Shown in pieces: positions 1,201-47,359 of a stretch of DNA of 64,000 nucleotides. The position numbers and the translations under genes were made by a program. The DNA comes from a virus. Its lineage: Duplodnaviria; Heunggongvirae; Uroviricota; Caudoviricetes. Each line of letters begins with the position of its first letter. Position 1 is the stretch's first letter. The stretch covers positions 34,217 to 98,216 of the IMG/VR virus record IMGVR_UViG_2718218168_000001. One strand, written 5' to 3'. The notes beneath the pieces are model-generated. The model was not told the DNA's origin. It worked only from the letters and a program-made list of their open reading frames with translations, and searched no databases.

Positions 1201-1285
1201 TTATGCTTCCTTTCGTAAAAACTCTTTTTGACGCGAGGGTAACGAAAGTCACATGTCAAAAGGCCCGGAACGGGCAAGCAATCAA

Positions 1286-1738: not shown

Positions 1739-1808
1739 CCTGTCACCTACTGATTAGCCCATGTCAACTAATCAACGTGGAATATAATACCCTCGATTAA
1801 AGAAATAG

Positions 1809-1825
1809 CAATATATTAGAGCAAT
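1809..1825. promoter_or_regulatory. C1 repressor operator-like 17-mer (15/17 to AAATTTATTAGAGCAAT)
   Basis: caatatattagagcaat, about 70 bp upstream of the lpa start. Confidence 0.5.
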
Positions 1826-1826
1826 T

Positions 1827-2870: not shown

Positions 2871-2897
2871 ATCACACCTTTAATCACTGATTGGGCT

Positions 2898-3077
2898 TTA
2901 TCTGCTGCCCGGCATTCTCTGTTTAAGCACAACCATTTCCTGACGGCATAACACAGCAATAGCGGTCCTGACTCCAATTTGCTTACCAACCAGGTATTGC
3001 TTTACCTTGCGGCGACTCACGCCATCAAGAAGCATCTTTAACGCTTCACGGGACAATTTGTTGTATTTGCGTGCCAT
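2898..3077 (-). CDS. small basic protein, possible DNA-binding
   Basis: about 59 aa from an internal Met (MARKYNKLSREALKMLL...); short and basic. Confidence 0.3.
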   Translation of the reverse strand: MARKYNKLSREALKMLLDGVSRRKVKQYLVGKQIGVRTAIAVLCRQEMVVLKQRMPGSR

Positions 3078-3081
3078 TAAT

Positions 3082-3462
3082 CTACTCCGCAGAACCATAC
3101 AATCTACGTAACGTGGCGGCGACAGAAGATACAGATATCTCGCCAGTCGCAGCCCCTACGGTAAGGTCTGCCAGTTCAGGTGAATCAAATACCTGCACCC
3201 CGTTACGGCGTAGAAATAACAGCGCACTGTTTAGCGCGGTACGCTTATTGGCATCATTGAATATATGCCCTCTCGCCGTAGCCACCAGGTAGGTGGCGGA
3301 GACTTCGAAAAGGTCGGTGATCTCTTCGTAGGCAACTCTGGCCTGAACTCTCCCGATAATGGCCTCTGCCCTACCCGGATCTGACATTCCCGGCAGGCCG
3401 CCGTAGCGGTTTATATTCGCATCATGAAGCGCAATAAGTTCTTCCGGTGATATATGCCTCAT
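3082..3462 (-). CDS. doc: Doc toxin (death on curing; Fic-fold kinase)
   Basis: 126 aa; sequence matches P1 Doc as recalled ([17 protein letters not shown]...[19 protein letters not shown]). Confidence 0.93.
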
Positions 3463-3683
3463 TATCGGTTAACCAGTTCCTTGTTGGTGGAGTCCAGGGT
3501 GTCAAACAGGGATGCAAATTCAGCATCCAGCGCCGCTTTTTTGTAGGTTTCAAAAGTAGCCTTGCTGACAATTACTGCTGGCTCACGGCCTCTGCGGGTG
3601 ATTTCAACCTCTTCCCCTGCTTCAACATTATTGAGCACTTCGCTAAGGTTGCCGCGCGCGGTACGGAAGTTAATGGATTGCAT
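3462..3683 (-). CDS. phd: Phd antitoxin
   Basis: about 73 aa from [45 protein letters not shown]...; its stop overlaps the doc start. Confidence 0.9.
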
Positions 3684-3827
3684 AAACACCTCGTGTACTC
3701 GTTATGTGTACACAATTATAAACTTCACAAGCATAAAGCACCAGCACTTTGCAGCTTAAATCACCGGACAATCGTCAAACTCCCCACTTCGGGCATCATT
3801 GATGAAATGATGTGGTCACACCAAACT

Positions 3828-4292
3828 TTAATCTTCAAGGTCTGCTTCTGATACCACTGTATAACCCAGAAATATTTTAATCTCATCCCACAATCCCATG
3901 ATCTTGCCTTCATACTCTGATGGTTCTCTTACAATTACTGAATCTGGGGGAGAGTGAGCCTCTAATTCAGTTATGATCTCATGGCAAAGATTATGTTTGT
4001 AATATTGTTTTAGTTTCTCTCGAATAGGTTTTGGCGCACTTTCAATAGTTTCTTTTGCGGCATTTAGTGAAAGAATTATATTACTTGCGTCATTAACATC
4101 CCAGTCTGATCCAGCTTTTCCTGTTGCTATTTTATTTGCCCTATCAGCAAAGTTTATCAATGCTTCACTATAAAATTTTTCCTTATCGAATAATCCAAGA
4201 TTTTTACTTGTGCGCAAACTAATAAAAGCAGCTATTGCTGACCCAAATGCCGCAATAGCTGATGCCCAATCGGGATTGATATGAAGAAACAT
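3828..4292 (-). CDS. hypothetical membrane-anchored protein (AT-rich cargo)
   Basis: 154 aa; N-terminal hydrophobic helix (WASAIAAFGSAIAAFISL); locally AT-rich. Confidence 0.5.
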   Translation of the reverse strand: MFLHINPDWASAIAAFGSAIAAFISLRTSKNLGLFDKEKFYSEALINFADRANKIATGKAGSDWDVNDASNIILSLNAAKETIESAPKPIREKLKQYYKHNLCHEIITELEAHSPPDSVIVREPSEYEGKIMGLWDEIKIFLGYTVVSEADLED

Positions 4293-4376
4293 GCTATCTC
4301 TACCTAATGCCAGATCTTTAACCTAGAAATATTGTATCAGTAGTTATGGCTTTGCCACCAGTAATGCGATTTTTTC

Positions 4377-23321: not shown

Positions 23322-24170
23322 TGGTTATCCCTCAATAAAAGTGACATATTTATTAGATTGCGGTGCCGGGTTCCTCCCGGTGTCCTTTGGCTGGTTATCC
23401 ACCGTGGACGTGGAAACAAGGAGAAATAATGGACAGATATAACCATTTCCCCGCGTGCGCTTAGCCGCATTCACCGCAACGGAAAGAGCATTCTTGGTGG
23501 ACCTGTAGATTGGGATATGAACCCGTTACAGGAGAATGCTCTTACCTGTTACGTGCTCCGTTTCGTGGAGCTAACGGCGGGTGATCGGGCCGCACCAGAC
23601 TGGACTTATTTCAGCGTTATGCTCATGCCAGAGAATCAAACTGTGATGGTCGGTGCTGAACTCCAACACAGGGTTGTAGCAAGCCCCGCAAAGCGCGCAC
23701 TACTGTAGTTGCGGCACATCAGCCTGTGCATTCACCACAATGTTGAGAACACTGGTTGTCACGCTGCAACGCAACATTTATTCGTAGATTGGGATATGAC
23801 CCCGTTACGCCAGTGTTCTCAACGTTGTAGTGCCGGTTACGGTTCCGGCCAGGCCTCTTCCTCAACGGGGTGTTCTCCATACGGACTACCGTTTATTGGT
23901 CGTTCCTGCGGTTTATGTTGTGAAGCCAGATGCTTATCTTCTGGTTGCTTCAAAGAGCTGCACTTCATCACAACGGTAAGAGCACTCGATGCATTTAAGC
24001 CAAGCCCCATAAGGGAGAATGCCCTTACCTGTTGTGTTGTGATGACCGGTGCTGATCTCCGGCTTGCGGTTATTTCAGACTCTCACGGGCGTTTAATTGC
24101 CCCGCCGAACAGCTCTTTTCCGCAATAGCTGCAATGTCTTTCGCGCATCAGCCTGCGCATTCATCACAAC

Positions 24171-24244
24171 GGTAAGGGTACTTCGTAGGGATTCGAACCC
24201 TCTGCCAAGCTCGGCGATCTCCGACGTCGCAAAATACCCTTACC
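24171..24244 (-). other. tRNA-like hairpin element (probable tRNA remnant)
   Basis: 10-bp inverted repeat ggtaagggta / tacccttacc enclosing a canonical T-arm (GGTTCGAATCC on the minus strand); no intact acceptor stem. Confidence 0.3.
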
Positions 24245-24252
24245 TGTTGTGC

Positions 24253-24328
24253 TGGTGCCGATTAACGGACTCGAACCGCTGACATCCTGCTTACAAGGCA
24301 GGCGCTCTACCAACTGAGCTAAACCGGC
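24253..24328 (-). tRNA. tRNA-Thr (UGU)
   Basis: GCCGGTTTAGCTCAGTTGGTAGAGC...CTTGTAA...GGTTCGAGTCC...CACCA, 76 nt. Confidence 0.85.
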
Positions 24329-24330
24329 AT

Positions 24331-24406
24331 TGGCGATGGTGGATGGATTTGAACCATCGACCCGTTGATTAACAGTCAACCGCTCTAACCGCTGAGCTAC
24401 ACCATC
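24331..24406 (-). tRNA. tRNA-Asn (GUU)
   Basis: GATGGTGTAGCTCAGCGGTTAGAGC...CTGTTAA...GGTTCAAATCC...CGCCA, 76 nt. Confidence 0.85.
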
Positions 24407-28366: not shown

Positions 28367-29268
28367 TGCTTAGCCTCTCCGCCAAGGGCATTTACCAGAG
28401 CATCAACCAGGCACGAAATTTCACTGGTCAACAGGAAGAAATCTGCGTCCAGTCGCTGCGCAACATCTTCACTATCAATATCAGCGTTCTGCTCAAGCAA
28501 TTCATCCGCAAATTTGACGCTGGTAAGGCTGAAGTTATGGTCCAGTGTAAATTTAATGCGGTTCTGCCAGTCGAGTGCCAACTTAGTGACGAGCTTGCCA
28601 GCTTCCAGGTGTGTGGATATTTCATCACTTCCCAAGTCCTGCTTTTTCACTCGGGCAATACCGCCATCCTCAAGCACTGCCTTAAGTTCTGCCGCATCCC
28701 CCATTTGAAATCCCTGCGGAGCACTACCATCACGCACCCAGTCGGTCAGCGTTAACTCAATTTGATTTTCAACACTTAGGGGCACAACAGGAAGAGAACC
28801 CAGAGATTTACGCATAAGCGCGAGCATATCCTCTGCCTGTCGCGCGCTGGCATTGATATAGATACGTTTAGTTGAACCGTCGTAGATCGCCTGGATAACA
28901 GAAAACTTTGAAAAAGCCCGTGGCAGAAGAGAATGCAGAACTTCGTCTTTCAGGGAGTCCTTCTCTGTTTTCTTCAGTTTACGCGCTTGTTCTTGCTCAA
29001 GTTTTTCAATTTTTTCTTGAATAGCTCGCTGGATAACCGGCGGGGGAAGAATTTTTGTTTCGCGCTTTGCTTCAACAAGGATAAAACCATTTCCATGCAT
29101 AGCGATAACTTCGGAATTATCACCAAATGGAGATACAAAACCGAACTTGGCCATATCCTGACTACCGCATGGCGTGAAAAGGATCATTTTCTTTTTATCT
29201 TCTAAGTCGGTCAGATCCGCCTCACGAGAAAGTTTATAAATAGTAATGTTTTTCCAGTGCTTAAACAT
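28363..29268 (-). CDS. hrdC: RdgC-like recombination-associated protein
   Basis: start at internal Met ([16 protein letters not shown]...); strong similarity along the whole length to E. coli RdgC as recalled. Confidence 0.85.
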
Positions 29269-29617
29269 GTTGTAACCCTTGAATATCAACCACAGAAAGC
29301 TCGTCTTTGTAGAAAAATGCCAGGTTGTGGCACCCCCTCGTTTGAGCGTATGAGCTGGGACCAATTTCGTTCTTCCAGACAAATGGCTTCAAATCCGTAC
29401 GGCGAAGCATAAAAACGCGATTTGTTCCGCTCTGATTCCCAATGAGGCAAAAGCCTTCTTTCACCTTGATAGCCTGCAAGTTGTCGAGTTCACCGCTGGT
29501 TACACGGCTATCGAACTCTTTGCGACTTATTAGCTCCATCTGCATCTGACGACTCCAAACAAATACCCATTGAAGGGCGATGGCTGAATGGTACCGAAAA
29601 CAAGACATAAAAAACAA
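29261..29617 (-). CDS. hypothetical protein upstream of hrdC
   Basis: 118-aa ORF (probable start MQMELISRK...); stop adjacent to the hrdC start. Confidence 0.45.
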
Positions 29618-29633
29618 TATTTATTAGGGCAAT
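29617..29633. promoter_or_regulatory. C1 operator-like 17-mer (15/17)
   Basis: atatttattagggcaat in the divergent intergenic region. Confidence 0.5.
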
Positions 29634-29713
29634 TATGCAATAGTTGACGCCATGTAGACCACAAGTAACCTAAGTTAAAATAAAGAAAACCAGAGCAAAT
29701 TATTGGTGATGCC

Positions 29714-29998
29714 GTGGCAAGTATTGCAACAAAAGACAGCATTTGTTCGGGGCACGGAGGATTCCCATCCAGGCCTCCTGTAGAGAGTGAACCACTACTT
29801 AAAGTCAACGGAGTCGAAGTGTTAGTTGATGGTAAGCAATATGCACAGCATACCGATGGAAACAGTACGCACGGTGGGCAAGCTATATCAACCAGGGCAT
29901 GGTTTACCGTCAATAGTAAAGGGATCGTATGCGTTGGTGACCCTGTTTCATGCGGATCTACCGTAGCGTCCGGAGACGGCCTGGTTCAGGTAAGTTAG
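29714..29998 (+). CDS. PAAR-like small protein (GTG start)
   Basis: 94 aa; CSGHGG ... HTDGNSTHGG ... VCVGDPVSCGSTVASG resembles PAAR spike-tip repeats. Confidence 0.4.
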   Translation: MASIATKDSICSGHGGFPSRPPVESEPLLKVNGVEVLVDGKQYAQHTDGNSTHGGQAISTRAWFTVNSKGIVCVGDPVSCGSTVASGDGLVQVS

Positions 29999-30006
29999 GA
30001 GATATC

Positions 30007-30795
30007 ATGCTGGAAAAAGACTACCAGTTATCCGCATATAAAAAATTGGCCGCCGCCGGTGGGATGAAAACACCTGGTGCCATAACATCGGCACGAAACT
30101 GTGCTAACACAGCAAAACTGCTTGCAGAAGAATTGACCGGATTAATTCTGGATACAATTGTCTATCCCGACACTATTACCTGCTATGTTTCAACGATAAG
30201 AACAACCACAACCGGCTTAACGAACATTGGAGAACTGGCAACTAAGCACGCGGACCTGTTGGCTGGTTATGCAGATCTGTCAATGCTGCTTCAACTCGAT
30301 ATTGGTTGGGATGTTTACTGCCGTGCTAATGAGCGAGAAGTTTCAGAACTGCCGATCTCTATTGCCATTGGTGATGTGAATATTACTAAATCGCTTGAGG
30401 ACGCTGTTAACGCGCTTAATACATCAAGTTTAGTCGCTGCTATGGGGGAGATTAACCAGACCCTTAACACTGGCTCAGTAAGCTCGTCAGGCTCTGGTTC
30501 AGGCGGCGGCACTGCCACTCCCCCACCAACACTAACAGAAGAGCAAATTGAATCTCTGAAAGTAGCAACTGAACAGTTTGGGGTTGTTTTCAACCAGACA
30601 ACAGCGCCCACAACTGCGTTACAACAGCAGTATGAACGAGCGAATGAAAGCGCCAACGTAGCCATAACTGCTTATGGCCATGCTATCGGTACCGCGCTTG
30701 CGGAAGCATCAGCAAATAAGGCCAGCACAGCCAGCGCAGTTGCTGCTTTGGTTCCTGATTCTGTTCTTGATGAATTAAACAAAGCGGCACAGTAA
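30007..30795 (+). CDS. hypothetical protein with Gly/Ser/Thr-rich linker
   Basis: ATG at 30007 preceded by aggag; 262 aa. Confidence 0.55.
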   Translation: MLEKDYQLSAYKKLAAAGGMKTPGAITSARNCANTAKLLAEELTGLILDTIVYPDTITCYVSTIRTTTTGLTNIGELATKHADLLAGYADLSMLLQLDIGWDVYCRANEREVSELPISIAIGDVNITKSLEDAVNALNTSSLVAAMGEINQTLNTGSVSSSGSGSGGGTATPPPTLTEEQIESLKVATEQFGVVFNQTTAPTTALQQQYERANESANVAITAYGHAIGTALAEASANKASTASAVAALVPDSVLDELNKAAQ

Positions 30796-30834
30796 CAAAG
30801 GACTTCATTGATAATTTTTCTTCAGGAGGAAGAC

Positions 30835-31251
30835 ATGTCATTCTTTTCTACGTTAAAAACAGCTTTGTCTTTGAAGGAGAAACTTGCTGCTACTGGTGTT
30901 CTTGTTCTGATTTGCGCACTTGTTGGTGCTGGGTTTGCATGGGAACGTCATCAGCTAAAGCAAGCCATAGAGAAAATTGGCAGTCTTGATCAGGCTGTTA
31001 AGGAACGTGATAAGTCAATAATGGATCTTAACCAGACCATTGAGACGATGAACAAAGCAGAGCAACATTTTCACAGCCAGGAAGTGAAAAATGAATCAGA
31101 GCAAGCCAAGTATGCTGACAGGCAAATGGAACGAAAAGCTGAAGTTCAGAAACAACTGGTTGCGGCGGGTAATGTTCGCCAGCGCATTCCTGCTGACACT
31201 CAGCGGTTGCTCCGGGAGTCGATCAGCGAATTTAACGCCGACAAAGGTTAA
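30835..31251 (+). CDS. Rz-like inner-membrane spanin candidate
   Basis: ATG at 30835 after aggagga; N-terminal TM helix then coiled-coil periplasmic domain. Confidence 0.5.
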   Translation: MSFFSTLKTALSLKEKLAATGVLVLICALVGAGFAWERHQLKQAIEKIGSLDQAVKERDKSIMDLNQTIETMNKAEQHFHSQEVKNESEQAKYADRQMERKAEVQKQLVAAGNVRQRIPADTQRLLRESISEFNADKG

Positions 31252-31417
31252 CCACCCTGCCCCCAAAAGTGCATTTATGTGCAGGATGCCGGAGTTTAGC
31301 AGTGAATATTTTGATGATCTGCCAGCGTATATCCTCGATACAGAAACGATGCTGATGGGGATTAACAGGAAGAATCGCAACGTTAATGATTACAACCGCG
31401 CTATCAGCGGTAACTAA
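31172..31417 (+). CDS. Rz1-like outer-membrane lipoprotein candidate, overlapping the Rz-like gene in another frame
   Basis: MFASAFLLTLSGCSG lipobox signal peptide; 81 aa; starts inside the 3' end of the Rz-like gene. Confidence 0.45.
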   Translation: MFASAFLLTLSGCSGSRSANLTPTKVNHPAPKSAFMCRMPEFSSEYFDDLPAYILDTETMLMGINRKNRNVNDYNRAISGN

Positions 31418-31428
31418 AAGGGATTTTT

Positions 31429-31821
31429 ATGTCTGATAAAGTAACAGTTAAGCAAACTATCAACAAAGCGACTTCAATCTACAAAATTGAGCACATCACT
31501 GTTGGCAAGCCAGGATCTGAACAATACCGTCATGCTTTCGAGCTTGCCGCTCAGCTTGGTTTAAAACACCCGGATTGCATTGAGCATGTATTTCCGACCT
31601 ATGCTGATGAGCAATGTACTCATGTTCTTACCGAAGAGGATTTTTTCAGCACTGAAGAACGAGAAGGCGTTGATCGCTGCATTGGTGTGATTTGCTCTTC
31701 AGTGAGTTATGAGTTATTCCCTAATGTCCATGAAAATGGTGGTATTGGATACCAATTCCTGTACGAAGGCGATGAGCTTAAATGTTATGAACATGGTCTT
31801 CTTATCGAAAGCGTAGAATAA
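31429..31821 (+). CDS. hypothetical protein
   Basis: 130-aa ORF followed by a terminator hairpin. Confidence 0.5.
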   Translation: MSDKVTVKQTINKATSIYKIEHITVGKPGSEQYRHAFELAAQLGLKHPDCIEHVFPTYADEQCTHVLTEEDFFSTEEREGVDRCIGVICSSVSYELFPNVHENGGIGYQFLYEGDELKCYEHGLLIESVE

Positions 31822-31826
31822 TACCC

Positions 31827-31858
31827 TTCCTTCCAACCGGCTATGTTGGCCGGTTTAT
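31827..31858 (+). terminator. intrinsic terminator
   Basis: aaccggc tatgttg gccggtt followed by tatt. Confidence 0.45.
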
Positions 31859-31863
31859 TCAAC

Positions 31864-31934
31864 TTATCCACAGCATAGATCCAATAAACAGATCCCAAAG
31901 AGAACCTAGGAAGATCCAAAGAAGATCCCGGATC
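31864..31934. promoter_or_regulatory. oriR accessory region: DnaA box plus five GATC sites
   Basis: TTATCCACA at 31864-31872; GATC at 31878, 31891, 31913, 31924 and 31931, mostly in AGATCC heptamers. Confidence 0.7.
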
Positions 31935-31975
31935 GCTGTAAGCCGCGCCGTTCATGGCCTGAAACGGGATCAACA

Positions 31976-32074
31976 TTGACTATACGCGATTTTATGTTGA
32001 CTGTGTGCGATTTTATGTTGACTGCACGCGATTTATTGTTGACTATACGCGACAGAAACGTTGACTGTACGCGA
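31976..32074. repeat. incC/oriR iterons: five direct repeats at about 21-bp spacing
   Basis: TTGACT(A/G)(T/C)(A/G)(C/T)GCGA at 31976, 31997, 32018, 32039 and 32061. Confidence 0.8.
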
Positions 32075-32155
32075 TTTTAGAGCCTGAATATTCACAGCTG
32101 TTGATAACAGTCATCTAAATTAACGCCAGGCCGCGCCACACATGGAGAAACCACG

Positions 32156-33040
32156 ATGCCGGAAGAAAGTAAAGGCTTCCTTAGCGTTGAAGAAGTTGCA
32201 GGAAATACAGGAGAAATCCACAGCCTGAAGCCCAATAACAACAGCACTATACAACCTATCGCTTTGTTGCGCTTAGGTGTGTTTGTGCCAACCTTAAAAT
32301 CTACCAATGTGGCACTACGTCGCGGATCGTCAGTTACTACAAACACAACGAACGCAACCGAAGAACTATCAAGCCTTAAAATTGTTGAGCAGGAAGGCTA
32401 TGAGGGAATTGAAATTCATGGCCCACGCCTGGATATGGATACTGATTTTAAGGTGTGGGTGGGCATAACCTCCGCGTTGTTTGACTACGCACCTGATGAT
32501 GACGGCATAATCACCCTGCCATTCTCCGAGTTTGCCGATCGATGCGGCTATCCACGTAAGCGCCTTTCAAAGGCGTTCCGTAAAAGTATTGATGACTCTC
32601 TGACACGCATTCAGCAGACAGTTGTCAAATTCCGCTTCCCGGCGGCAAAAGGTCATCTCAATAACATTAACGTCAACTTGTTGGCATATAGCAGCCTGAA
32701 TACCGAGCTTGATGTTATCGAGATCCAGCCGCAGAAACAGCTATCTGAACTTTACTATGTTGACTATAAGCGAATCCTGAAGCTGAAGATGCTGGATAAG
32801 CTCGGGCGCAAAGAGACGGCCAAGGTACTGTATACATTCTTTGAGGCTCTACCCGCCAACCCGGCACCTGTCAGCATTGAGCGCCTTAGAGCAAGGCTTA
32901 ATCTCAAATCATCCGTTAGCGTGCAAAATAGCGTTATCAGAAAAGCCATGAAAGATTTGGAAGCTATTGAATATCTTAAATTTTCAGAAATAAAAAACGG
33001 CAGGAAAATCGGCTTCCAGATCCATAAGCGCAATCCATAA
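32156..33040 (+). CDS. repA: plasmid replication initiator RepA (P1 RepA family)
   Basis: 294 aa; similarity to P1 RepA as recalled (LRLGVFVP, GPRLDMDTDFKVW); flanked by iterons. Confidence 0.85.
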   Translation: MPEESKGFLSVEEVAGNTGEIHSLKPNNNSTIQPIALLRLGVFVPTLKSTNVALRRGSSVTTNTTNATEELSSLKIVEQEGYEGIEIHGPRLDMDTDFKVWVGITSALFDYAPDDDGIITLPFSEFADRCGYPRKRLSKAFRKSIDDSLTRIQQTVVKFRFPAAKGHLNNINVNLLAYSSLNTELDVIEIQPQKQLSELYYVDYKRILKLKMLDKLGRKETAKVLYTFFEALPANPAPVSIERLRARLNLKSSVSVQNSVIRKAMKDLEAIEYLKFSEIKNGRKIGFQIHKRNP

Positions 33041-33042
33041 TA

Positions 33043-33297
33043 TTGACTATATGCGATAGCGAGAAGTTGACTATAGGCGACATTCGTTGACGCTGGTGGA
33101 TTTTTGCTGGCGTCAATATTCTGCAAGTCGCTATTGAGATGGCTTTTAGGGTCATTTCATCGCGTATAGTCAACGTTTCTCCCGACAATATCTTACATAG
33201 TCGATCTTTGGTGGAGTTAAATCGACTACAGTCAACTTTTGACTGTAGTCACATCGCGCATAGTCAACTATTCACATTAACTTTCGCGCATAGTCAA
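33043..33297. repeat. incA copy-control iterons (at least 8 copies, both orientations)
   Basis: ttgactatatgcga, ttgactataggcga, tcgcgtatagtcaa, tcgactacagtcaa, ttgactgtagtcac, tcgcgcatagtcaa twice, and others. Confidence 0.75.
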
Positions 33298-33332
33298 CAT
33301 TTGCGCGGTTCTCATCAAGCAGTGGTATTGAT

Positions 33333-34142
33333 ATGCAAGAAGAGAAACAACACTACCTCTACGTTCTGGTGCCGGAGAATGGAGATACTTTTAAAATCGG
33401 CATTTCATGTGGTCCATTGGCACGGTTTAAAGGGCTACAAGTGAGTCCCGATTTTGCGCTTTCACGGGTCTATCGTGGTACGCGTTTGGCAATAGTTAAT
33501 CTTGAGCGGGCTTTACACGCAACCTTTTTCCCCTGGAATGCGCCGTGGGAGAAAAGCGCTGGTGGCGGGCATACTGAATGGTTTACACGAGAGTGTCTTG
33601 ATAAGGTTTTGGCTCATATCGAATATCTAAATGATATGTGGGGAGGGATTCTCGAGCGCATTAAGTCGAATGATTTACTTCAGCGTCCAGTAGATGCTGC
33701 CCGCTCTTTCGAAAAAGAGCTGGATGTTACTTCTATCGTGACTTTCAAAGATGACGCAGGAATGAGGGACGTGGCTTATGTCTCCATATCTGGCTATGAA
33801 CCGGACGCGATCCGCGCTCAATGTGAATTGCTGAAAGCAATGTTTATGCTTCGGACTAAATATTCCTGGGAGACAAGGCGGGTGTGCTTCCCTATGGAAG
33901 AGTTAACCGCCACCATTGATTCCCAGCTTTACCACGATAATCCAGAGAAGTTTTTTAGCCTTTTAGCCGGTAATGGGCTTAACTGTGTGTCCGGGCTGGG
34001 GCGAAGTAGAATCCAACATGCCTCGCTCTTCGGTCCCTTCTTTTACGATCGACACGGGTACTTTGAGGCTGAACTTCCGGCGCTTACGCGTGCTATAGAT
34101 ACTATCGATTTCGAACGATTATTCGCTGCTCTTAGCAAATAA
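33333..34142 (+). CDS. GIY-YIG/T5orf172-like domain protein
   Basis: 269 aa; N-terminal HYLYVLVPENGDTFKIGIS...RFKGL resembles the T5orf172 GIY-YIG-like domain. Confidence 0.5.
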   Translation: MQEEKQHYLYVLVPENGDTFKIGISCGPLARFKGLQVSPDFALSRVYRGTRLAIVNLERALHATFFPWNAPWEKSAGGGHTEWFTRECLDKVLAHIEYLNDMWGGILERIKSNDLLQRPVDAARSFEKELDVTSIVTFKDDAGMRDVAYVSISGYEPDAIRAQCELLKAMFMLRTKYSWETRRVCFPMEELTATIDSQLYHDNPEKFFSLLAGNGLNCVSGLGRSRIQHASLFGPFFYDRHGYFEAELPALTRAIDTIDFERLFAALSK

Positions 34143-34149
34143 CACTGAT

Positions 34150-34170
34150 GCCCCTGAACGGGGCTTTTTT
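34150..34170 (+). terminator. intrinsic terminator
   Basis: gcccctgaacggggc followed by tttttt. Confidence 0.55.
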
Positions 34171-34310
34171 GTGCCCTCCTTGTAACTCTCAATCGTGCAA
34201 AATGAACCAAACATGCAGAGAATGCTATGTACAAGCATCTGTGCATACATTATTATTTTATGCAGCATTTTTAATTAAATTCAAAAATACAGCATAAAGG
34301 ATGGCTTTCG

Positions 34311-35507
34311 ATGAGTGATTCCAGCCAGCTTCACAAGGTTGCTCAAAGAGCAAACAGAATGCTCAATGTTCTGACTGAACAAGTACAGTTGCAAAAGGAT
34401 GAGCTACACGCGAACGAGTTTTACCAGGTCTATGCGAAAGCGGCACTGGCAAAATTGCCTCTACTGACTCGAGCGAACGTTGACTATGCCGTGAGTGAAA
34501 TGGAAGAAAAGGGTTATGTTTTCGATAAACGCCCTGCTGGCTCTTCAATGAAATATGCGATGTCAATTCAGAACATCATTGACATATATGAACATCGCGG
34601 AGTGCCAAAATACCGGGATCGCTACAGCGAAGCGTATGTGATTTTCATCTCCAATCTTAAAGGCGGTGTGTCAAAAACTGTATCGACGGTTTCTCTGGCG
34701 CATGCAATGCGTGCTCACCCTCATCTTCTGATGGAAGATTTAAGGATTCTGGTTATTGACCTTGATCCGCAATCTTCAGCAACGATGTTTTTAAGCCATA
34801 AACACTCTATTGGTATCGTAAACGCAACATCTGCACAGGCTATGTTGCAGAATGTAAGCCGTGAAGAGCTGTTAGAGGAGTTTATTGTTCCTTCTGTTGT
34901 ACTTGGGGTTGACGTTATGCCTGCGTCGATTGACGATGCCTTTATTGCATCCGATTGGAGAGAGCTGTGCAATGAGCATCTACCGGGTCAGAACATCCAT
35001 GCTGTCCTGAAAGAAAATGTGATTGATAAGCTGAAGAGCGATTATGACTTTATCCTCGTTGATAGTGGTCCTCACCTTGACGCCTTCCTGAAAAATGCTT
35101 TGGCCTCGGCCAATATACTGTTTACACCTCTGCCGCCTGCAACGGTTGATTTCCACTCATCGCTTAAATACGTTGCCCGCCTTCCTGAGTTGGTGAAACT
35201 CATTTCGGATGAAGGCTGCGAGTGCCAGCTTGCGACTAACATTGGTTTTATGTCCAAGTTGAGTAACAAGGCAGACCATAAGTATTGCCATAGCCTGGCT
35301 AAAGAAGTGTTCGGTGGGGATATGCTTGATGTCGTCCTCCCTCGCCTTGACGGTTTTGAACGCTGCGGCGAGTCTTTTGACACTGTTATTTCAGCTAACC
35401 CGGCAACGTATGTTGGTAGTGCTGATGCATTGAAGAACGCGCGAATTGCCGCGGAAGATTTTGCTAAAGCAGTTTTTGACCGTATTGAATTTATCAGATC
35501 TAACTGA
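34311..35507 (+). CDS. parA: partition ATPase ParA
   Basis: 398 aa; Walker A KGGVSKT; N-terminal HTH extension typical of type Ia ParA. Confidence 0.9.
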   Translation: MSDSSQLHKVAQRANRMLNVLTEQVQLQKDELHANEFYQVYAKAALAKLPLLTRANVDYAVSEMEEKGYVFDKRPAGSSMKYAMSIQNIIDIYEHRGVPKYRDRYSEAYVIFISNLKGGVSKTVSTVSLAHAMRAHPHLLMEDLRILVIDLDPQSSATMFLSHKHSIGIVNATSAQAMLQNVSREELLEEFIVPSVVLGVDVMPASIDDAFIASDWRELCNEHLPGQNIHAVLKENVIDKLKSDYDFILVDSGPHLDAFLKNALASANILFTPLPPATVDFHSSLKYVARLPELVKLISDEGCECQLATNIGFMSKLSNKADHKYCHSLAKEVFGGDMLDVVLPRLDGFERCGESFDTVISANPATYVGSADALKNARIAAEDFAKAVFDRIEFIRSN

Positions 35508-35523
35508 GGAGTAAGAAACCCCC

Positions 35524-36525
35524 ATGTCAAAGAAAAACAGACCAACAATTGGGCGAACCCTTAATCCTTCAATATTAAGCGGATTTGATAGTTCTTCAGC
35601 CTCTGGCGATCGAGTCGAGCAGGTATTCAAGTTATCAACTGGTCGCCAGGCCACATTTATTGAAGAGGTAATACCTCCGAACCAGGTAGAAAGCGATACC
35701 TTTGTTGATCAGCATAACAACGGGCGTGACCAGGCATCTCTTACGCCAAAATCATTAAAAAGTATCCGAAGCACTATTAAGCATCAGCAATTTTACCCTG
35801 CAATAGGTGTTAGACGGGCTACAGGGAAAATTGAAATTTTGGATGGTTCCCGGCGTCGAGCTTCTGCCATCTTAGAGAACGTAGGGTTGCGGGTTTTAGT
35901 CACGGACCAGGAGATCAGCGTTCAGGAAGCGCAAAATTTAGCGAAAGACGTTCAGACAGCATTGCAGCACAGCATTCGAGAAATAGGTCTGCGTTTGATG
36001 CGAATGAAAAATGATGGGATGAGTCAGAAGGATATTGCAGCCAAAGAAGGGCTGTCTCAGGCGAAGGTCACGCGTGCTCTCCAGGCAGCGAGTGCTCCGG
36101 AAGAATTAGTCGCCCTTTTCCCTGTGCAGTCGGAATTAACCTTTTCGGACTACAAAACGCTTTGTGCTGTTGGCGACGAAATGGGGAACAAGAATTTAGA
36201 GTTTGATCAGCTTATTCAAAACATATCCCCGGAAATAAACGACATCTTATCCATTGAAGAAATGGCCGAAGATGAAGTTAAAAATAAAATCCTGCGCTTG
36301 ATAACAAAGGAAGCCTCACTACTCACGGATAAAGGTTCTAAAGATAAGTCCGTAGTTACTGAATTATGGAAATTTGAGGACAAGGATCGCTTTGCAAGGA
36401 AGCGCGTGAAAGGCCGTGCATTTTCTTATGAGTTTAATCGACTTTCAAAAGAGCTACAGGAAGAACTCGACAGGATGATTGGGCATATCCTTAGAAAGAG
36501 CCTCGATAAAAAGCCGAAGCCTTAA
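35524..36525 (+). CDS. parB: partition protein ParB
   Basis: 333 aa; ParB/Spo0J-like central domain, downstream of parA, followed by parS. Confidence 0.9.
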   Translation: MSKKNRPTIGRTLNPSILSGFDSSSASGDRVEQVFKLSTGRQATFIEEVIPPNQVESDTFVDQHNNGRDQASLTPKSLKSIRSTIKHQQFYPAIGVRRATGKIEILDGSRRRASAILENVGLRVLVTDQEISVQEAQNLAKDVQTALQHSIREIGLRLMRMKNDGMSQKDIAAKEGLSQAKVTRALQAASAPEELVALFPVQSELTFSDYKTLCAVGDEMGNKNLEFDQLIQNISPEINDILSIEEMAEDEVKNKILRLITKEASLLTDKGSKDKSVVTELWKFEDKDRFARKRVKGRAFSYEFNRLSKELQEELDRMIGHILRKSLDKKPKP

Positions 36526-36528
36526 ACT

Positions 36529-36615
36529 TTCGCCATTCAAATTTCACTATTAACCTACTGTTTTTAAAGTAAATCCATCTAAAATTTCAAGGTGAAATCG
36601 CCACGATTTCACCTT
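36529..36615. other. parS centromere: ParB box A/B motifs flanking an AT-rich bend site
   Basis: tcgccattcaaatttcac ... aaatttcaaggtgaaatcgccacgatttcacc, matching the P1 parS arrangement as recalled. Confidence 0.75.
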
Positions 36616-36750
36616 GGATTTTACCTTCCGCCCCTACTCCCGAAAAAAATAAAAAAATTGCTTGTCACGAGAAAGTCAACAAGTGACTTTCAATAAAATC
36701 TCTTCCGAAAAGGGATTCACACAAGTGCCTTGTGTTTAAGGAAGAGTAAA

Positions 36751-38457
36751 TTGAGTAACTTACGCGAATACCAGAATCGTATTGCAGATATCGCAAAACG
36801 CTCTAAAGCTGTGCTTGGCTGGGCAAGCACTGCGCAGTTCGGTACTGATAACCAATTCATTAAAGATGATGCCGCGCGTGCCGCATCTATCCTTGAAGCT
36901 GCACGTAAAGACCCGGTTTTTGCGGGTATCTCTGATAATGCCACCGCTCAAATCGCTACAGCGTGGGCAAGTGCACTGGCTGACTACGCCGCAGCACATA
37001 AATCTATGCCGCGTCCGGAAATTCTGGCCTCCTGCCACCAGACGCTGGAAAACTGCCTGATTGAGTCCACCCGCAATAGCATGGATGCCACTAATAAAGC
37101 GATGCTGGAATCCGTCGCAGCAGAGATGATGAGCGTTTCTGACGGTGTTATGCGTCTGCCTTTATTCCTCGCGATGATCCTGCCTGTTCAGTTGGGGGCA
37201 GCTACCGCTGATGCGTGTACCTTCATTCCGGTTACGCGTGACCAGTCCGACATCTATGAAGTCTTTAACGTGGCAGGTTCCTCTTTTGGTTCTTATGCTG
37301 CTGGTGATGTTCTGGACATGCAATCCGTCGGTGTGTACAGCCAGTTACGTCGCCGCTATGTGCTGGTGGCAAGCTCCGATGGCACCAGCAAAACCGCAAC
37401 CTTCAAGATGGAAGACTTCGAAGGCCAGAATGTACCAATCCGAAAAGGTCGCACTAACATCTACGTTAACCGTATTAAGTCTGTTGTTGATAACGGTTCC
37501 GGCAGCCTACTTCACTCGTTTACTAATGCTGCTGGTGAGCAAATCACTGTTACCTGCTCTCTGAACTACAACATTGGTCAGATTGCCCTGTCGTTCTCCA
37601 AAGCGCCGGATAAAGGCACTGAGATCGCAATTGAGACGGAAATCAATATTGAAGCCGCTCCTGAGCTGATCCCGCTGATCAACCACGAAATGAAGAAATA
37701 CACCCTGTTCCCAAGCCAGTTCGTTATCGCGGCTGAGCACACGGTACAGGCGGCGTATGAAGCACAGCGTGAATTTGGTCTGGACCTGGGTTCCCTACAG
37801 TTCCGCACCCTGAAGGAATACCTGTCTCATGAACAGGATATGCTGCGTCTTCGCATCATGATCTGGCGTACTCTTGCGACCGACACCTTTGACATCGCTC
37901 TGCCGGTTAACCAGTCCTTTGATGTATGGGCAACCATCATTCGTGGCAAATTCCAGACTGTATATCGCGACATTATTGAGCGCGTTAAATCTTCTGGTGC
38001 GATGGGGATGTTTGCTGGTGCTGATGCAGCATCTTTCTTCAAACAGTTGCCGAAGGATTTCTTCCAGCCAGCCGAAGACTATATCCAGACTCCGTATGTT
38101 CACTTCATCGGTACCCTGTTCGGTAACGTGAAAGTGTACGAAGTACCTGCTGGTATTTGTAAGAACTTAACGACAGAGAACATTCAGTTCAGCTCGATGG
38201 ATGTGCTGTGCTACGTCCGTGATGAAAATCCGGGTAAAGCAGGCTTCGTGACTGGTGATGCTGTCCCGGCCATCCCGTTCCAGCATCCGACCACTCCGGC
38301 GCTGGTCAACCGTACCACGCTGTGGGGTTCGGCTATCAACGATATGCACCCACGCAACGGCGCTGATTACTTCACTCGTGTAACGCTGACAATGGCCAAA
38401 AAAGGCGGGCTTAACTTCATAAGCGGCGACACGATTGATGCCGGTGACTCTGAGTAA
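36751..38457 (+). CDS. phage structural protein, probable TTG start
   Basis: ORF track starts at 36730; likely start TTG at 36751 preceded by aaggaagag; about 568 aa, upstream of the sheath gene. Confidence 0.5.
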   Translation: MSNLREYQNRIADIAKRSKAVLGWASTAQFGTDNQFIKDDAARAASILEAARKDPVFAGISDNATAQIATAWASALADYAAAHKSMPRPEILASCHQTLENCLIESTRNSMDATNKAMLESVAAEMMSVSDGVMRLPLFLAMILPVQLGAATADACTFIPVTRDQSDIYEVFNVAGSSFGSYAAGDVLDMQSVGVYSQLRRRYVLVASSDGTSKTATFKMEDFEGQNVPIRKGRTNIYVNRIKSVVDNGSGSLLHSFTNAAGEQITVTCSLNYNIGQIALSFSKAPDKGTEIAIETEINIEAAPELIPLINHEMKKYTLFPSQFVIAAEHTVQAAYEAQREFGLDLGSLQFRTLKEYLSHEQDMLRLRIMIWRTLATDTFDIALPVNQSFDVWATIIRGKFQTVYRDIIERVKSSGAMGMFAGADAASFFKQLPKDFFQPAEDYIQTPYVHFIGTLFGNVKVYEVPAGICKNLTTENIQFSSMDVLCYVRDENPGKAGFVTGDAVPAIPFQHPTTPALVNRTTLWGSAINDMHPRNGADYFTRVTLTMAKKGGLNFISGDTIDAGDSE

Positions 38458-38517
38458 TCAGGGGAAGTTCTCCGTTTAACATAGCGCCCCCGTGCGGGGC
38501 GCATAACAGGGAAAGTT

Positions 38518-40107
38518 ATGTCTCAATATTCAATTCAACAGTCATTAGGTAATGCATCCGGCGTCGCGGTTAGCCCGATCAATGCCGATGCGACGTTATC
38601 TACCGGTGTTGCATTAAATAGCAGCTTGTGGGCTGGTATTGGCGTATTTGCGCGTGGCAAGCCGTTTACTGTTCTTGCGGTTACTGAGTCCAATTACGAA
38701 GATGTTCTCGGCGAACCGCTGAAGCCGTCTTCCGGCCCACAGTTCGAACCAATTCGCCATGTATACGAAGCTATTCAGCAAACGTCTGGTTATGTTGTTC
38801 GCGCTGTTCCGGATGATGCGAAGTTCCCGATTATTATGTTCGATGAATCAGGCGAACCGGCTTACAGTGCGTTGCCATACGGTTCTGAAATTGAACTTGA
38901 TAGTGGCGAAGCCTTTGCTATCTACGTTGATGATGGTGATCCGTGTATTTCACCTACCCGTGAGTTAACCATCGAAACGGCAACAGCGGACAGCGCGGGT
39001 AATGAACGCTTCCTCTTAAAACTGACCCAGACGACTTCGCTCGGTGTGGTAACGACCCTGGAGACACACACTGTGTCTTTGGCGGAAGAAGCGAAAGATG
39101 ACATGGGCCGCTTGTGTTATCTGCCTACGGCTCTGGAAGCCCGTTCTAAATATCTGCGCGCGGTTGTTAATGAAGAGCTGATTTCGACGGCGAAAGTAAC
39201 AAACAAAAAATCGTTGGCGTTCACTGGCGGTACCAACGGCGATCAGTCGAAAATCTCCACCGAAGCCTACCTGCGTGCGGTTAAGGTGCTGAACAATGCG
39301 CCGTACATGTACACCGCTGTTCTCGGCCTGGGTTGCTATGACAATGCGGCGATCACCGCGTTAGGTAATATCTGTTCTGATCGCCTGATTGATGGCTTCT
39401 TTGATGTCAAACCGACATTGACGTACACGGAAGCGATCTCTGCTGTTGAAGATACCGGTTTACTTGGTACCGATTATGTAAGCTGTGCTGTCTATCACTT
39501 CCCGTTCTCCTGCAAAGACAAATGGACCCAATCCCGTGTTGTCTTCGGTCTGTCTGGCGCGGCGTATGCGGCGAAAGCTCGTGGCGTTAAGAAAAACTCC
39601 GATGTCGGCGGTTGGCATTACTCACCGGCTGGTGAAGAACGTGCCGTCATTGCTCGTGCATCACTTCAGCCGCTGTATCCTGAAGACACCCCGGACGAAG
39701 AAGCTATGGTCAAGGGCCGACTCAATAAAGTATCTGTAGGTACTTCGGGCCAGATGATCATCGATGATGCTTTAACTTGCTGCACGCAGGATAACTATCT
39801 GCACTTCCAGCACGTCCCATCCCTGATGAATGCAATCAGCCGTTTCTTTGTCCAGTTAGCCCGACAGATGAAGCATAGCCCGGACGGTATTACTGCGGTT
39901 GGCCTGACTAAAGGGATGACCAAACTTTTAGATCGCTTTGTCGCCTCCGGCGCTCTGGTGGCTCCTCGTGATCCTGATGCTGACGGTACAGAACCGTATG
40001 TGCTGAAAGTTACGCAGGCGGAATTCGATAAATGGGAAGTAGTCTGGGCCTGCTGCCCGACTGGCGTAGCCCGTCGTATCCAGGGCGTACCGCTGCTTAT
40101 TAAGTAA
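38518..40107 (+). CDS. contractile tail sheath protein
   Basis: 529 aa; size, composition and neighbouring tube-like genes. Confidence 0.6.
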   Translation: MSQYSIQQSLGNASGVAVSPINADATLSTGVALNSSLWAGIGVFARGKPFTVLAVTESNYEDVLGEPLKPSSGPQFEPIRHVYEAIQQTSGYVVRAVPDDAKFPIIMFDESGEPAYSALPYGSEIELDSGEAFAIYVDDGDPCISPTRELTIETATADSAGNERFLLKLTQTTSLGVVTTLETHTVSLAEEAKDDMGRLCYLPTALEARSKYLRAVVNEELISTAKVTNKKSLAFTGGTNGDQSKISTEAYLRAVKVLNNAPYMYTAVLGLGCYDNAAITALGNICSDRLIDGFFDVKPTLTYTEAISAVEDTGLLGTDYVSCAVYHFPFSCKDKWTQSRVVFGLSGAAYAAKARGVKKNSDVGGWHYSPAGEERAVIARASLQPLYPEDTPDEEAMVKGRLNKVSVGTSGQMIIDDALTCCTQDNYLHFQHVPSLMNAISRFFVQLARQMKHSPDGITAVGLTKGMTKLLDRFVASGALVAPRDPDADGTEPYVLKVTQAEFDKWEVVWACCPTGVARRIQGVPLLIK

Positions 40108-47045: not shown

Positions 47046-47359
47046 AGTTACGGCCTCACAATCAGGTTTAACAACCTGCTACCCGCTGCTAAACAGGTGG
47101 CAGGACGTGACGGGGTTAGCAGACTGGCGATTGTGAAACCAGCAGGCCGAAGCCTCCCCATCACGCCCCACCATAATTTGGGCGTAACGCGGTTTTACGG
47201 ACACAAAAATACCGCAATATCGGATATCTGCGGCTGTCCGCACAATCATTCAGGCTGCTAAACCCGGTCGCAGAATTTGCTACGACGGCGAAACTATAAG
47301 CCTGAACGATTAAAAGGTCAATATGATGCGAAAAGATAGCATTCACGACTTAAAAATAC

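What the first reader, a model, noticed from the sequence alone, without database searches (positions are those of the whole stretch)
33333..34142. GIY-YIG/T5orf172-like gene wedged between incA iterons and the par operon
In P1 the incA iterons are followed directly by the parA promoter, as I recall it. Here a 269-aa gene with an N-terminal GIY-YIG-like (T5orf172-type) motif and its own terminator occupies that gap. It could be a mobile nuclease-like insertion or an accessory DNA-binding factor acting at the replicon or partition locus.
Basis: partly seen in the sequence, partly recalled or inferred. Interest (0 to 1): 0.55.

Follow-up and report, generated by a model that had tools for sequence, protein, structure and literature searches.

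The report
Nuclease gene riding the plasmid-replicon cassette
The 269-codon gene is real and encodes a GIY-YIG-type (T5orf172) nuclease fused to a winged-helix domain, but it is not a one-off insertion: it is the standard right-hand end of the alternative "p0111" replication cassette of P1-like phage-plasmids, behaves like a dispensable, homing-endonuclease-like selfish gene, and may help explain how these elements swap replicons.

Summary
ORF 33333-34142 (+) is intact, passes Pfam T5orf172, keeps the catalytic Arg and Glu, has its own terminator, and lies between repA-distal iterons and Ppar.

The framing needs correcting. The window is an RCS47/SJ46-type P1-like phage-plasmid. The iterons are not P1 incA. 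The segment 31950-34208 (iterons, repA', iterons, T5orf172, terminator) is a cassette that replaces P1's IncY cassette. The literature already notes this as "repA' (p0111) and an unknown gene gp57".

- The gene accompanies this replicon in about 390 PLSDB plasmids and 401 of 5426 complete E. coli genomes.
- Full-length homologues at 25-44% identity occupy the same repA-parA slot in three diverged P1-like lineages with three iteron types.
- P1 and a Salmonella plasmid have an empty slot.
- The gene is dispensable and decaying. Among 44 relatives I found three independent nonsense mutations and one IS disruption. pN/pS is 0.30, against 0.01-0.05 for repA and parAB.

Best reading, at about 0.5 confidence: a free-standing homing-type endonuclease at the replicon-cassette boundary. 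Rival readings are an Odn-like iteron-directed weapon and a domesticated replication or partition factor. Interest is moderate.

The parts
31864..31935 (+). Left, P1-homologous part of oriR: a DnaA box (TTATCCACA at 31864) and five GATC sites (31878-31931). This part is shared between the IncY and p0111 replicon types.
   Evidence: Motif scan. Homology to P1 runs up to 31949.
31950..34208 (+). Replicon cassette that replaces P1 L001:3498-4997: origin iterons, repA', control iterons, T5orf172 gene and terminator.
   Evidence: BLASTN breakpoints against P1. The same boundaries occur between L004 and L005. Described in the literature as 'repA' (p0111) plus an unknown gene gp57' (PMC9603915).
31974..32074 (+). 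Five direct iterons at 21-22-nt spacing (origin, incC-like array).
   Evidence: the repeat finder family D1.
32156..33040 (+). repA' (294 aa), a Rep_3-family initiator of the p0111 type.
   Evidence: Pfam Rep3_C and Rep3_N hits. 42% identity to P1 RepA. Annotated 'RepB family plasmid replication initiator' in the hits.
33041..33302 (.). incA-like control array: two direct iterons (33041-33056, 33065-33080) and four inverted iterons (33160-33178, 33222-33240, 33254-33272, 33284-33302).
   Evidence: the repeat finder families D1 and D3 and the inverted pairs.
33333..33644 (+). T5orf172 / GIY-YIG-superfamily nuclease domain (aa 1-104). Y10, K21-I22-G23, R31, E58, H62 and E82-W83-F84 are conserved.
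33645..34142 (+). C-terminal domain (aa 105-269) with a winged-helix fold. It is a near-orphan in sequence.
34150..34173 (+). Intrinsic terminator of the T5orf172 gene.
   Evidence: Terminator scan and the sequence itself.
34209..34310 (+). Resumption of 99% identity to P1: the Ppar promoter/operator region (promoter-like site at 34228-34256).
34311..36525 (+). parA and parB (P1-type partition operon), the downstream neighbour and not part of the cassette.
   Evidence: Pfam hits. 99-100% amino-acid identity to P1 ParA and ParB.

Best explanation
The gene encodes a two-domain, site-directed endonuclease. The N-terminal part is a T5orf172 (GIY-YIG superfamily) catalytic domain, and the C-terminal part is a winged-helix targeting domain. 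It behaves as a free-standing, homing-endonuclease-type selfish gene.

Its niche is the junction between the control iterons (the incA equivalent) and the par promoter of P1-like phage-plasmids. That makes it the right-hand edge of the exchangeable plasmid-replicon cassette.

Inferred mechanism: when a T5orf172-bearing element shares a cell with a related element that lacks the gene or carries another cassette type, the nuclease cuts the rival at or near that junction. Recombinational repair from the nuclease-bearing element, using the conserved flanks (the DnaA-box/GATC part of oriR on the left and Ppar on the right), then copies the gene together with its linked repA and iterons.

The gene is not needed for replication or partition. 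It is probably expressed at a low level, by read-through from repA or from a weak promoter inside the iterons.

Shown here: domain identity, conserved catalytic residues, cassette boundaries, the syntenic but polymorphic distribution, and dispensability with decay.

Inferred only: nuclease activity, target site and homing.
For: 1. Nuclease domain.
- Pfam T5orf172 scores above its cut-off.
- R31 and E58 are invariant across four lineages that share only 25-44% identity.
- R31 and E58 align with the catalytic Arg and with E180 of Odn. In the paper, the Odn E180A mutant neither cleaved the PLE origin substrates in vitro nor worked against PLE in vivo (PMC8263062).

2. Targeting-type second domain.
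- A nuclease domain at one end and a binding domain at the other is the architecture described for T5orf172 homing endonuclease genes (HEGs) (PMC10448857).

3. Position at a boundary of genetic exchange.
- Homology to P1 stops at 31949 and resumes at 34209, 67 nt after the stop codon.
- In a second P1-like clade, L004 and L005 are 98-100% identical in their flanking proteins. They differ only in repA (38%) and the T5orf172 gene (26%).
- Their breakpoints lie 63-84 nt after the T5orf172 stop.
- Nuclease genes at exchange boundaries are the pattern reported by Barth et al. 2023.

4. Filled and empty alleles with a gene-sized indel.
- L005 (RepA 83% identical to P1 RepA) carries a homologue.
- P1 and the Salmonella plasmid L059 (RepA 90% and ParA 97% identical to L005) go straight from iterons to Ppar.
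- pHum4b has the window-type iterons up to 12 nt before the ATG position and then a par operon.

5. Dispensable and decaying.
- Among 44 close relatives, repA (43/43), parA (39/39) and parB (43/43) are intact in every full-length ungapped copy.
- T5orf172 has three independent nonsense mutations (W68*, S112*, Q228*) and one IS200/IS605-type disruption.
- pN/pS is 0.30, against 0.01-0.05 for repA, parA and parB.

6. There is no separate promoter and only a weak Shine-Dalgarno sequence. In all four lineages the ATG lies 25-35 nt after the last iteron.
Against: - No cleavage, target site or homing event has been observed. Everything about function is inferred.
- The gene is found at one locus only. 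There are no dispersed paralogues and no copies elsewhere in plasmids or phages.
- Within E. coli p0111-type elements it is essentially fixed. No clean empty allele of this replicon exists except the decayed pHum4b remnant.
- Long-term retention of a full-length, alignable protein across lineages at 25-44% identity, with pN/pS of 0.3 rather than 1, also fits a beneficial accessory function.
- Cassette boundaries at the edges of heterology would arise from any homologous recombination, with or without a nuclease.
- The protein is acidic (pI 5.4-5.9). This is atypical for a DNA-binding protein, although the proven nuclease Odn has a pI of 5.9.
Confidence: 0.5

Rival explanations
1. An Odn-like, iteron- or origin-directed nuclease used in competition between elements. 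The winged-helix, Rep-WH1-like C-domain would recognise the iterons of a replicon, or dock onto its RepA. The nuclease would then destroy rival or incoming P1-like elements. This would be nuclease-mediated exclusion or incompatibility, without necessarily homing.
For: - The precedent is ICP1 Odn, a T5orf172 domain fused to a RepA-like DNA-binding domain. It cuts the PLE origin in an iteron-dependent way (PMC8263062).
- In the window and in three other lineages, the gene abuts the last iteron in all three iteron types.
- Its type co-varies with RepA type. Type A accompanies p0111-like RepA. Types B and B' accompany IncY-like and L007-type RepA.
- The top, non-significant BFVD hit is a COG5527 plasmid replication initiator.
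- The C-domain evolves very fast: 30% identity between lineages whose RepA is 83% identical.
Against: - There is no sequence-level similarity between the C-domain and any of the five RepA proteins. BLASTP finds nothing and hhalign gives a probability of 0.2%. Odn, by contrast, is 42% identical to its RepA model.
- If the C-domain read the same iteron as RepA, the 30% identity between window and L004, which share one iteron sequence, would be surprising.
- Self-targeting of the element's own iterons would have to be avoided by some unknown means.
Confidence: 0.2
2. A domesticated accessory factor of the replicon or partition system. It would be a non-cutting or nicking protein that modulates RepA-iteron handcuffing, copy number or par expression, for example through a WH1-like interaction with RepA.
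For: - The position between control iterons and Ppar is conserved in four lineages.
- The gene is probably co-transcribed with repA. No terminator or promoter was found between them.
- pN/pS is below 1.
- The CapR precedent shows that a T5orf172-HEG DNA-binding domain can be domesticated as a regulator (bioRxiv 10.1101/2020.11.28.402263).
Against: - P1 and L059 lack the gene although they carry a homologous repA/iteron replicon.
- Natural nonsense and IS alleles occur on contigs that keep intact repA, parA and parB, including one with the length of the SJ46 record.
- The catalytic Arg and Glu are strictly conserved. That would be unnecessary for a pure DNA- or protein-binding role.
- Constraint is 6-30 times weaker than on repA and parAB.
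Confidence: 0.12
3. A phage-plasmid 'moron': an anti-phage defence or superinfection-exclusion nuclease, unrelated to the replicon, that happens to be lodged in a permissive intergenic site.
For: - P1-like elements carry many accessory conflict genes.
- A more distant N-domain relative (P0013) lies near Mrr_cat and WYL genes on a chromosome.
- The gene has its own terminator, which is a moron-like layout.
Against: - PADLOC gives no hit even at E<=1.
- The strict linkage to the repA-par slot, and the co-variation with replicon type across lineages, are not expected for a generic cargo gene.
- The nearest N-domain relative outside P1-like elements (P0012) sits among HNH homing endonucleases in a phage.
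Confidence: 0.1

Closest known systems
Free-standing T5orf172 homing endonuclease genes of ICP1 and other phages (Barth, Dunham & Seed 2023, PMC10448857)
   Same: - It has the same catalytic domain family (PF10544).
- It has the same layout, with a nuclease at one terminus and a binding domain at the other.
- It lies next to essential genes and at the boundaries of exchanged modules.
- It shows presence/absence polymorphism, with frameshift or nonsense decay.
   Different: - The second domain here is an orphan winged-helix domain, not the CapR, DUF723 or DUF4397 zinc-finger repeats found in 87% of those HEGs.
- The nuclease domain is N-terminal here.
- There is a single locus and no paralogue expansion.
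- The host is a plasmid replicon of a temperate phage-plasmid, not a lytic phage.
- Homing is untested in both cases.
Odn (ICP1 gp88), the origin-directed nuclease (Barth et al. 2021, PMC8263062)
   Same: - Both have a T5orf172 domain with the same conserved Arg and Glu (E58 corresponds to E180).
- Both are small, acidic two-domain proteins.
- In both, the second domain is of a replication-initiator type, at fold level here.
- Both are associated with iterons.
   Different: - Odn's DNA-binding domain is 42% identical to PLE RepA_N. Here no sequence similarity to any RepA is detectable.
- Odn is encoded by the attacker of the replicon it cuts. This gene is encoded inside a replicon cassette.
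- The domain order is reversed.
T4 GIY-YIG free-standing HEGs (Seg proteins, I-TevI). This comparison rests on established knowledge, not on a test here.
   Same: Both belong to the GIY-YIG superfamily. The model of localised marker exclusion and co-conversion of flanking genes is the one proposed here for co-transfer of repA and the iterons.
   Different: - This is a different subfamily: T5orf172, with KIG in place of YIG.
- The binding modules differ.
- No intron or intein context exists here.
The same gene as already annotated: JL22 'gp57' (PMC9603915), RCS47 FDJ53_gp090 'GIY-YIG nuclease family protein', and PHROG 2876
   Same: 97-100% identical protein in the same position.
   Different: Existing records only name the domain or call the protein unknown. 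No record discusses function, conservation of the slot in other P1-like clades, co-variation with replicon type, or decay.
SLX1 / URI-type GIY-YIG nucleases
   Different: Only 11-16% identity. SLX1 is a eukaryotic structure-specific nuclease with a RING domain, so the similarity is in fold only.

Membership tests
T5orf172 (PF10544), GIY-YIG superfamily | Match to the family HMM above the curated threshold | tested here: met
   26.8 bits against a cut-off of 20, E=7.6e-6, residues 8-85. The precomputed PF10544 annotation is also present on homologues P0001 and P0004.
T5orf172 (PF10544), GIY-YIG superfamily | GIY-YIG alpha/beta fold | tested here: met
T5orf172 (PF10544), GIY-YIG superfamily | Conserved catalytic Arg and Glu, and the motif Tyr | tested here: met
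   Y10, K21, G23, R31, E58, H62 and E82 are invariant in the four P1-like lineages and in Odn. E58 aligns with Odn E180.
T5orf172 (PF10544), GIY-YIG superfamily | Endonuclease activity | not testable with these tools
   This needs purified protein and an E58A control.
Free-standing homing endonuclease gene | Nuclease domain plus a separate DNA-binding domain | tested here: inconclusive
Free-standing homing endonuclease gene | Presence/absence polymorphism at the same site in related genomes, with a gene-sized indel | tested here: met
   L005 is filled, while L059 and P1 are empty, within one RepA type. The window is filled and pHum4b is not. Within E. coli p0111 elements the gene is fixed.
Free-standing homing endonuclease gene | Signs of the HEG life cycle: relaxed constraint and recurrent inactivation | tested here: met
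   Three independent nonsense alleles and one IS disruption among 44 loci. pN/pS is 0.30, against 0.01-0.05 for the neighbouring genes.
Free-standing homing endonuclease gene | Cleavage of the gene-less allele, and gene conversion into it | not testable with these tools
   This requires in vitro cleavage mapping and genetic crosses.
Odn-type origin-directed nuclease | Binding domain homologous in sequence to a replication initiator's DNA-binding domain | tested here: not met
   BLASTP against the window RepA' and P1 RepA finds nothing. hhalign of the C-domain profile against the RepA profile gives probability 0.2%. There is only a weak fold-level resemblance to Rep WH1.
Odn-type origin-directed nuclease | Iteron-dependent cleavage of an origin | not testable with these tools
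   No biochemical tool is available.
   The iteron core is TTGACTATACGCGA, against GATGTGTGCTGGAGGGA in P1. RepA is 42% identical. P1 DNA homology is absent between 31950 and 34208.
Known anti-phage defence systems (PADLOC-DB) | Match to any defence-protein model | tested here: not met
   No family matches at E<=1.

The most novel reading that the evidence does not exclude
P1-like phage-plasmids carry, inside each plasmid-replicon cassette, a replicon-type-matched nuclease. Its Rep-WH1-like domain would direct it to iterons, either directly or by docking on RepA. It would act as a weapon between replicons and as the engine of replicon-cassette swapping, giving nuclease-mediated incompatibility or exclusion. 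That would explain the IncY/p0111 dimorphism seen in two separate P1-like clades.
Probability: 0.2. Interest if true: 0.75.

Novelty: new variant of a known kind. Interest (0 to 1): 0.45.

Why it matters
P1-like phage-plasmids are frequent carriers of ESBL and other resistance genes. In the set of 5426 complete RefSeq E. coli genomes searched here, 418 carry this cassette.

Surveys type these elements as IncY or p0111 and note that repA' and 'an unknown gene' replace repA. I found no explanation in the searched literature of why the replicon is swapped as a block, or of what the extra gene does.

If the gene is a homing-type or iteron-directed nuclease, it would provide a mechanism for replicon-cassette exchange and for competition between co-infecting phage-plasmids. 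It would also extend the 'nuclease genes at boundaries of genetic exchange' idea from lytic phages to plasmid replicons.

There is a practical point too. Because the gene is dispensable and often broken, it should not be assumed to be part of the minimal p0111 replicon.

Tried and rejected
1. The idea of a private insertion into a P1 IncY replicon was rejected. The whole cassette differs from P1, and the gene is constant in p0111-type elements.

2. I looked for a remnant of a T5orf172 gene in P1's 213-nt incA-Ppar spacer. BLASTN with word size 7, and hmmsearch of the three forward-frame translations with the family profile, found nothing.

3. I tested for sequence homology between the C-domain and RepA (window, P1 or the RepA family profile). 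There is none.

4. NCBIfam, PADLOC and PDB sequence searches (single sequence and profile), and a Pfam scan of the C-domains, gave nothing significant.

5. Searches for more family members gave little.
- The scan of GTDB species-representative genomes found one E. coli-type locus plus an unrelated N-domain hit.
- IMG/VR yielded only window-type copies.
- tblastn with the type-B protein P0009 in PLSDB and INPHARED gave only cross-hits to the window type.

6. The abundant 168-aa 'C-terminal only' cluster (P0003) starts 103 nt from a contig end, so it is probably an assembly artefact and not a natural truncation.

7. I considered the argument that an acidic pI excludes DNA binding. I dropped it because the proven nuclease Odn has a pI of 5.9.

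8. The iteron-like 17-mer at 34191-34207 is probably not an iteron remnant. The same motif is conserved upstream of par in L007 and pHum4b.

The BFVD search gave no significant hit.

10. There is no compositional sign of foreign origin. The gene's GC content is 47.4%, against 47.2% for the window.

Full report
**What is at the coordinates**

The ORF 33333-34142 (+) is present as described. It starts with ATG, is 269 aa long, and is followed 8 nt later by a GC-rich hairpin plus T-run at 34150-34173. Pfam places residues 8-85 in T5orf172 (PF10544) at 26.8 bits, above the cut-off of 20. PHROGs matches it end to end to phrog_2876 (unknown function), and matches the N-terminus to an 'endonuclease' phrog. 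NCBIfam and PADLOC give nothing.

Upstream lie a Rep_3-type initiator gene (32156-33040) and arrays of one iteron with core TTGACTATACGCGA:
- five direct copies at 21-nt spacing before repA (31974-32074);
- one copy inside repA (32758);
- two direct copies after repA (33041, 33065);
- four inverted copies after repA (33160, 33222, 33254, 33284), the last ending 31 nt before the ATG.

Downstream are Ppar, parA and parB.

**Context: a replicon cassette, not an insertion into P1's incA-par gap**

The region is 99.5% identical to phage-plasmid RCS47 and about 99% identical to SJ46, JL22 and others. Canonical P1 matches only outside 31950-34208.
- The left flank, 28466-31949, is 95% identical to P1. 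It includes the DnaA box and the GATC cluster of oriR.
- The right flank is 99.3% identical from 34209, which is 16 nt before the -35 of Ppar.

Between these points, P1 has its incC iterons, repA, incA iterons and a spacer, 1500 nt in all. The window has different iterons, a RepA' that is 42% identical to P1 RepA, and the T5orf172 gene, 2259 nt in all.

This is the known IncY versus p0111 replicon dimorphism of P1-like phage-plasmids. [quoted passage not shown]

The gene always travels with this replicon:
- 391 PLSDB records hold at least 80% of the 31800-34320 query, which spans the cassette, and 390 hold the protein;
- 401 of 5426 complete E. coli genomes hold at least 80% of the cassette.

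The only PLSDB record with this iteron type but no gene is pHum4b. It carries a decayed remnant with a frameshifted repA, joined to a different par operon.

**The slot is conserved in distant P1 relatives, and the gene co-varies with replicon type**

The family is tiny. A word-indexed search of 5.8e9 proteins found only the window cluster and one homologue at 44% identity. An exhaustive HMMER scan of 1.84e9 cluster representatives found 164 hits. All but P0004, P0009 and some fragments match only the first ~100 residues.

The three nearest relatives (P0004, P0009, P0011) were located on contigs. Each lies between a repA and a parA of a diverged P1-like element whose head and sheath proteins are about 80% identical to the window's. 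All four proteins align over their full length.

L004 and L005 have backbones that are 98-100% identical at the protein level. They differ in RepA (38%) and in the T5orf172 protein (26%).
- L004 pairs a window-type RepA (83% to the window RepA) with a window-type nuclease (44%).
- L005 pairs a P1-type RepA (83% to P1 RepA) with a different nuclease type.
- L007 has a third RepA and iteron type, with a nuclease 39% identical to L005's.

The L004/L005 breakpoints mirror those of window/P1. They lie about 176 nt upstream of repA and 63-84 nt after the nuclease stop. In every lineage the ATG lies 25-35 nt after the last inverted iteron.

**Filled and empty alleles**

P1 lacks the gene although L005, which has a homologous RepA and the same iterons, has it. 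P1's 213-nt spacer shows no remnant of the gene.

A Salmonella Wandsworth plasmid (L059) has a RepA 90% identical and a ParA 97% identical to L005. It goes from iterons to Ppar in 394 nt. Aligning the two shows an indel of roughly 930 nt that is essentially the ORF plus short flanks. A degenerate iteron-like sequence is retained downstream of the gene in L005.

**Dispensability and decay**

I examined 44 close relatives, taken from IMG/VR plus one genome. Every full-length ungapped copy of repA (43), parA (39) and parB (43) is intact. Only 35 of 42 full-length T5orf172 copies are intact.
- There are three independent nonsense mutations: W68*; S112* in five loci, including a contig with the length of the p0111 reference plasmid; and Q228* in a contig with the length of SJ46.
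- One further copy is disrupted by an IS200/IS605-type element.
- pN/pS against the window allele is 0.30. It is 0.01 for repA, 0.03 for parA, 0.05 for parB and 0.16 for upfA.

So the gene is under some purifying selection, but far weaker than on its neighbours. It is repeatedly lost without loss of the replicon genes.

**The protein**

The N-domain keeps Y10, K21-I22-G23, R31, E58, H62 and E82-W83-F84 in all four lineages. In an alignment with ICP1 Odn, the one T5orf172 protein I found with published nuclease biochemistry, R31 and E58 fall on Odn's catalytic Arg and on E180. The E180A mutant is inactive in vivo and in vitro (PMC8263062).

The best BFVD hit, which is not significant, is a COG5527 plasmid replication initiator. 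No sequence similarity to the cognate or P1 RepA is detectable.

The C-domain diverges much faster than the N-domain. Between the window and L004, the C-domain is 30% identical and the N-domain 63%, while RepA is 83%.

**Interpretation**

The combination fits the published signature of free-standing T5orf172 homing endonuclease genes (PMC10448857):
- an intact GIY-YIG-type active site and a separate fast-evolving winged-helix domain;
- a location exactly at the edge of an exchanged module;
- gene-sized filled and empty alleles;
- weak constraint with recurrent inactivation.

I therefore favour a homing-type selfish nuclease. Its linked 'cargo' would be the repA/iteron cassette, and the conserved oriR-left and Ppar sequences would serve as recombination flanks.

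A core role in replication or partition is unlikely, given P1, L059 and the natural knock-outs. A generic defence gene is unlikely, given the strict slot and the absence of PADLOC matches.

All functional steps remain inferences: cutting, target, homing, and binding to iterons or RepA.

**Novelty and score**

The gene, its domain label and the cassette replacement are already in databases and in one paper. The following points did not appear in the literature I searched:
- the slot is conserved across diverged P1-like clades;
- the nuclease type co-varies with replicon type;
- empty alleles exist;
- the gene is decaying;
- the second domain is a near-orphan winged helix.

I rate it a new variant of a known kind, namely a T5orf172 homing-type nuclease in a plasmid-replicon niche. 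Interest is moderate at 0.45.

Noticed in passing
window 32758-32773: A near-perfect iteron copy (TGTTGACTATAAGCGA, 94% identical to the reference copy) lies inside the repA' coding sequence. It could be an extra RepA-binding or autoregulatory site.
   Followed up: no
window 31864-31949 vs P1 L001:3405-3497: Only the iteron half of oriR is swapped between IncY and p0111 types. The DnaA box and the five-GATC AT-rich half are shared with P1. The origin is therefore modular, with the cassette breakpoint inside it.
   Followed up: partly
window 28466-31949 vs 34209-39200: Identity to P1 is asymmetric around the cassette. The left flank averages 95%, with patches at 84-86%. The right flank (par, gene 23, gene 22) is 99-100% identical for about 5 kb. 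This suggests a recent exchange whose crossover lies at the nuclease-gene end.
   Followed up: partly
L005:8895-8930 vs L059:4963-5000: In the IncY-like element that carries a T5orf172 gene, a degenerate copy of the spacer plus last iteron (AGTTATCAGAAC GCTACACACAGCACAT) lies downstream of the gene. The gene may have been inserted inside the iteron array, upstream of its last repeat.
   Followed up: partly
L053:6294-8058: One IMG/VR relative has the nuclease gene disrupted. Codons ~99-174 are replaced by a ~1.76-kb element that encodes a TnpB-like 389-aa protein and a 141-aa Y1-transposase-like protein of the IS200/IS605 type. The element type was identified from its sequence motifs only.
   Followed up: partly
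L019, L047 (IMG/VR contigs of 97,897 and 103,445 nt): These contigs have exactly the lengths of the p0111 reference plasmid NC_013370 and of Salmonella phage SJ46. They carry the S112* and Q228* alleles of the nuclease gene. This suggests that reference and characterised elements have a broken copy.
   Followed up: partly
L003 (pHum4b, NZ_OR724977) 583-4300: A 291-kb IncHI plasmid carries a fragment of a P1-like element. It runs from the ppfA/mlp-upfA region through oriR to a frameshifted p0111-like repA and its iterons, and is joined directly to an L007-type parA with no nuclease gene.
   Followed up: partly
protein P0005 (E. coli plasmid, ABN773_26325): This is a 197-aa chimeric ORF. It has 78 unrelated N-terminal residues fused in frame to residues ~105-223 of the nuclease's C-domain. 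It may be a rearrangement or domain shuffle inside the gene.
   Followed up: no
OR339795.1 (phage phi456) 40441-40782 region: In this GenBank record the feature under the match to the gene is named 'terminase small subunit', which looks like a misannotation.
   Followed up: no
window 47093-47299; 22537-24406: P1-type immunity RNA features are present: C4 antisense RNA and its a1/b1 targets. Three tRNA genes (Met, Thr, Asn) are also present, as expected for a P1-like element.
   Followed up: no
NZ_JBUBIS010000002.1 77461-79719: A 102-kb plasmid contig of the chicken E. coli strain GPEC1054 is 100% identical to the window over the whole cassette. It may be the source of the window or a very close relative.
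   Followed up: no
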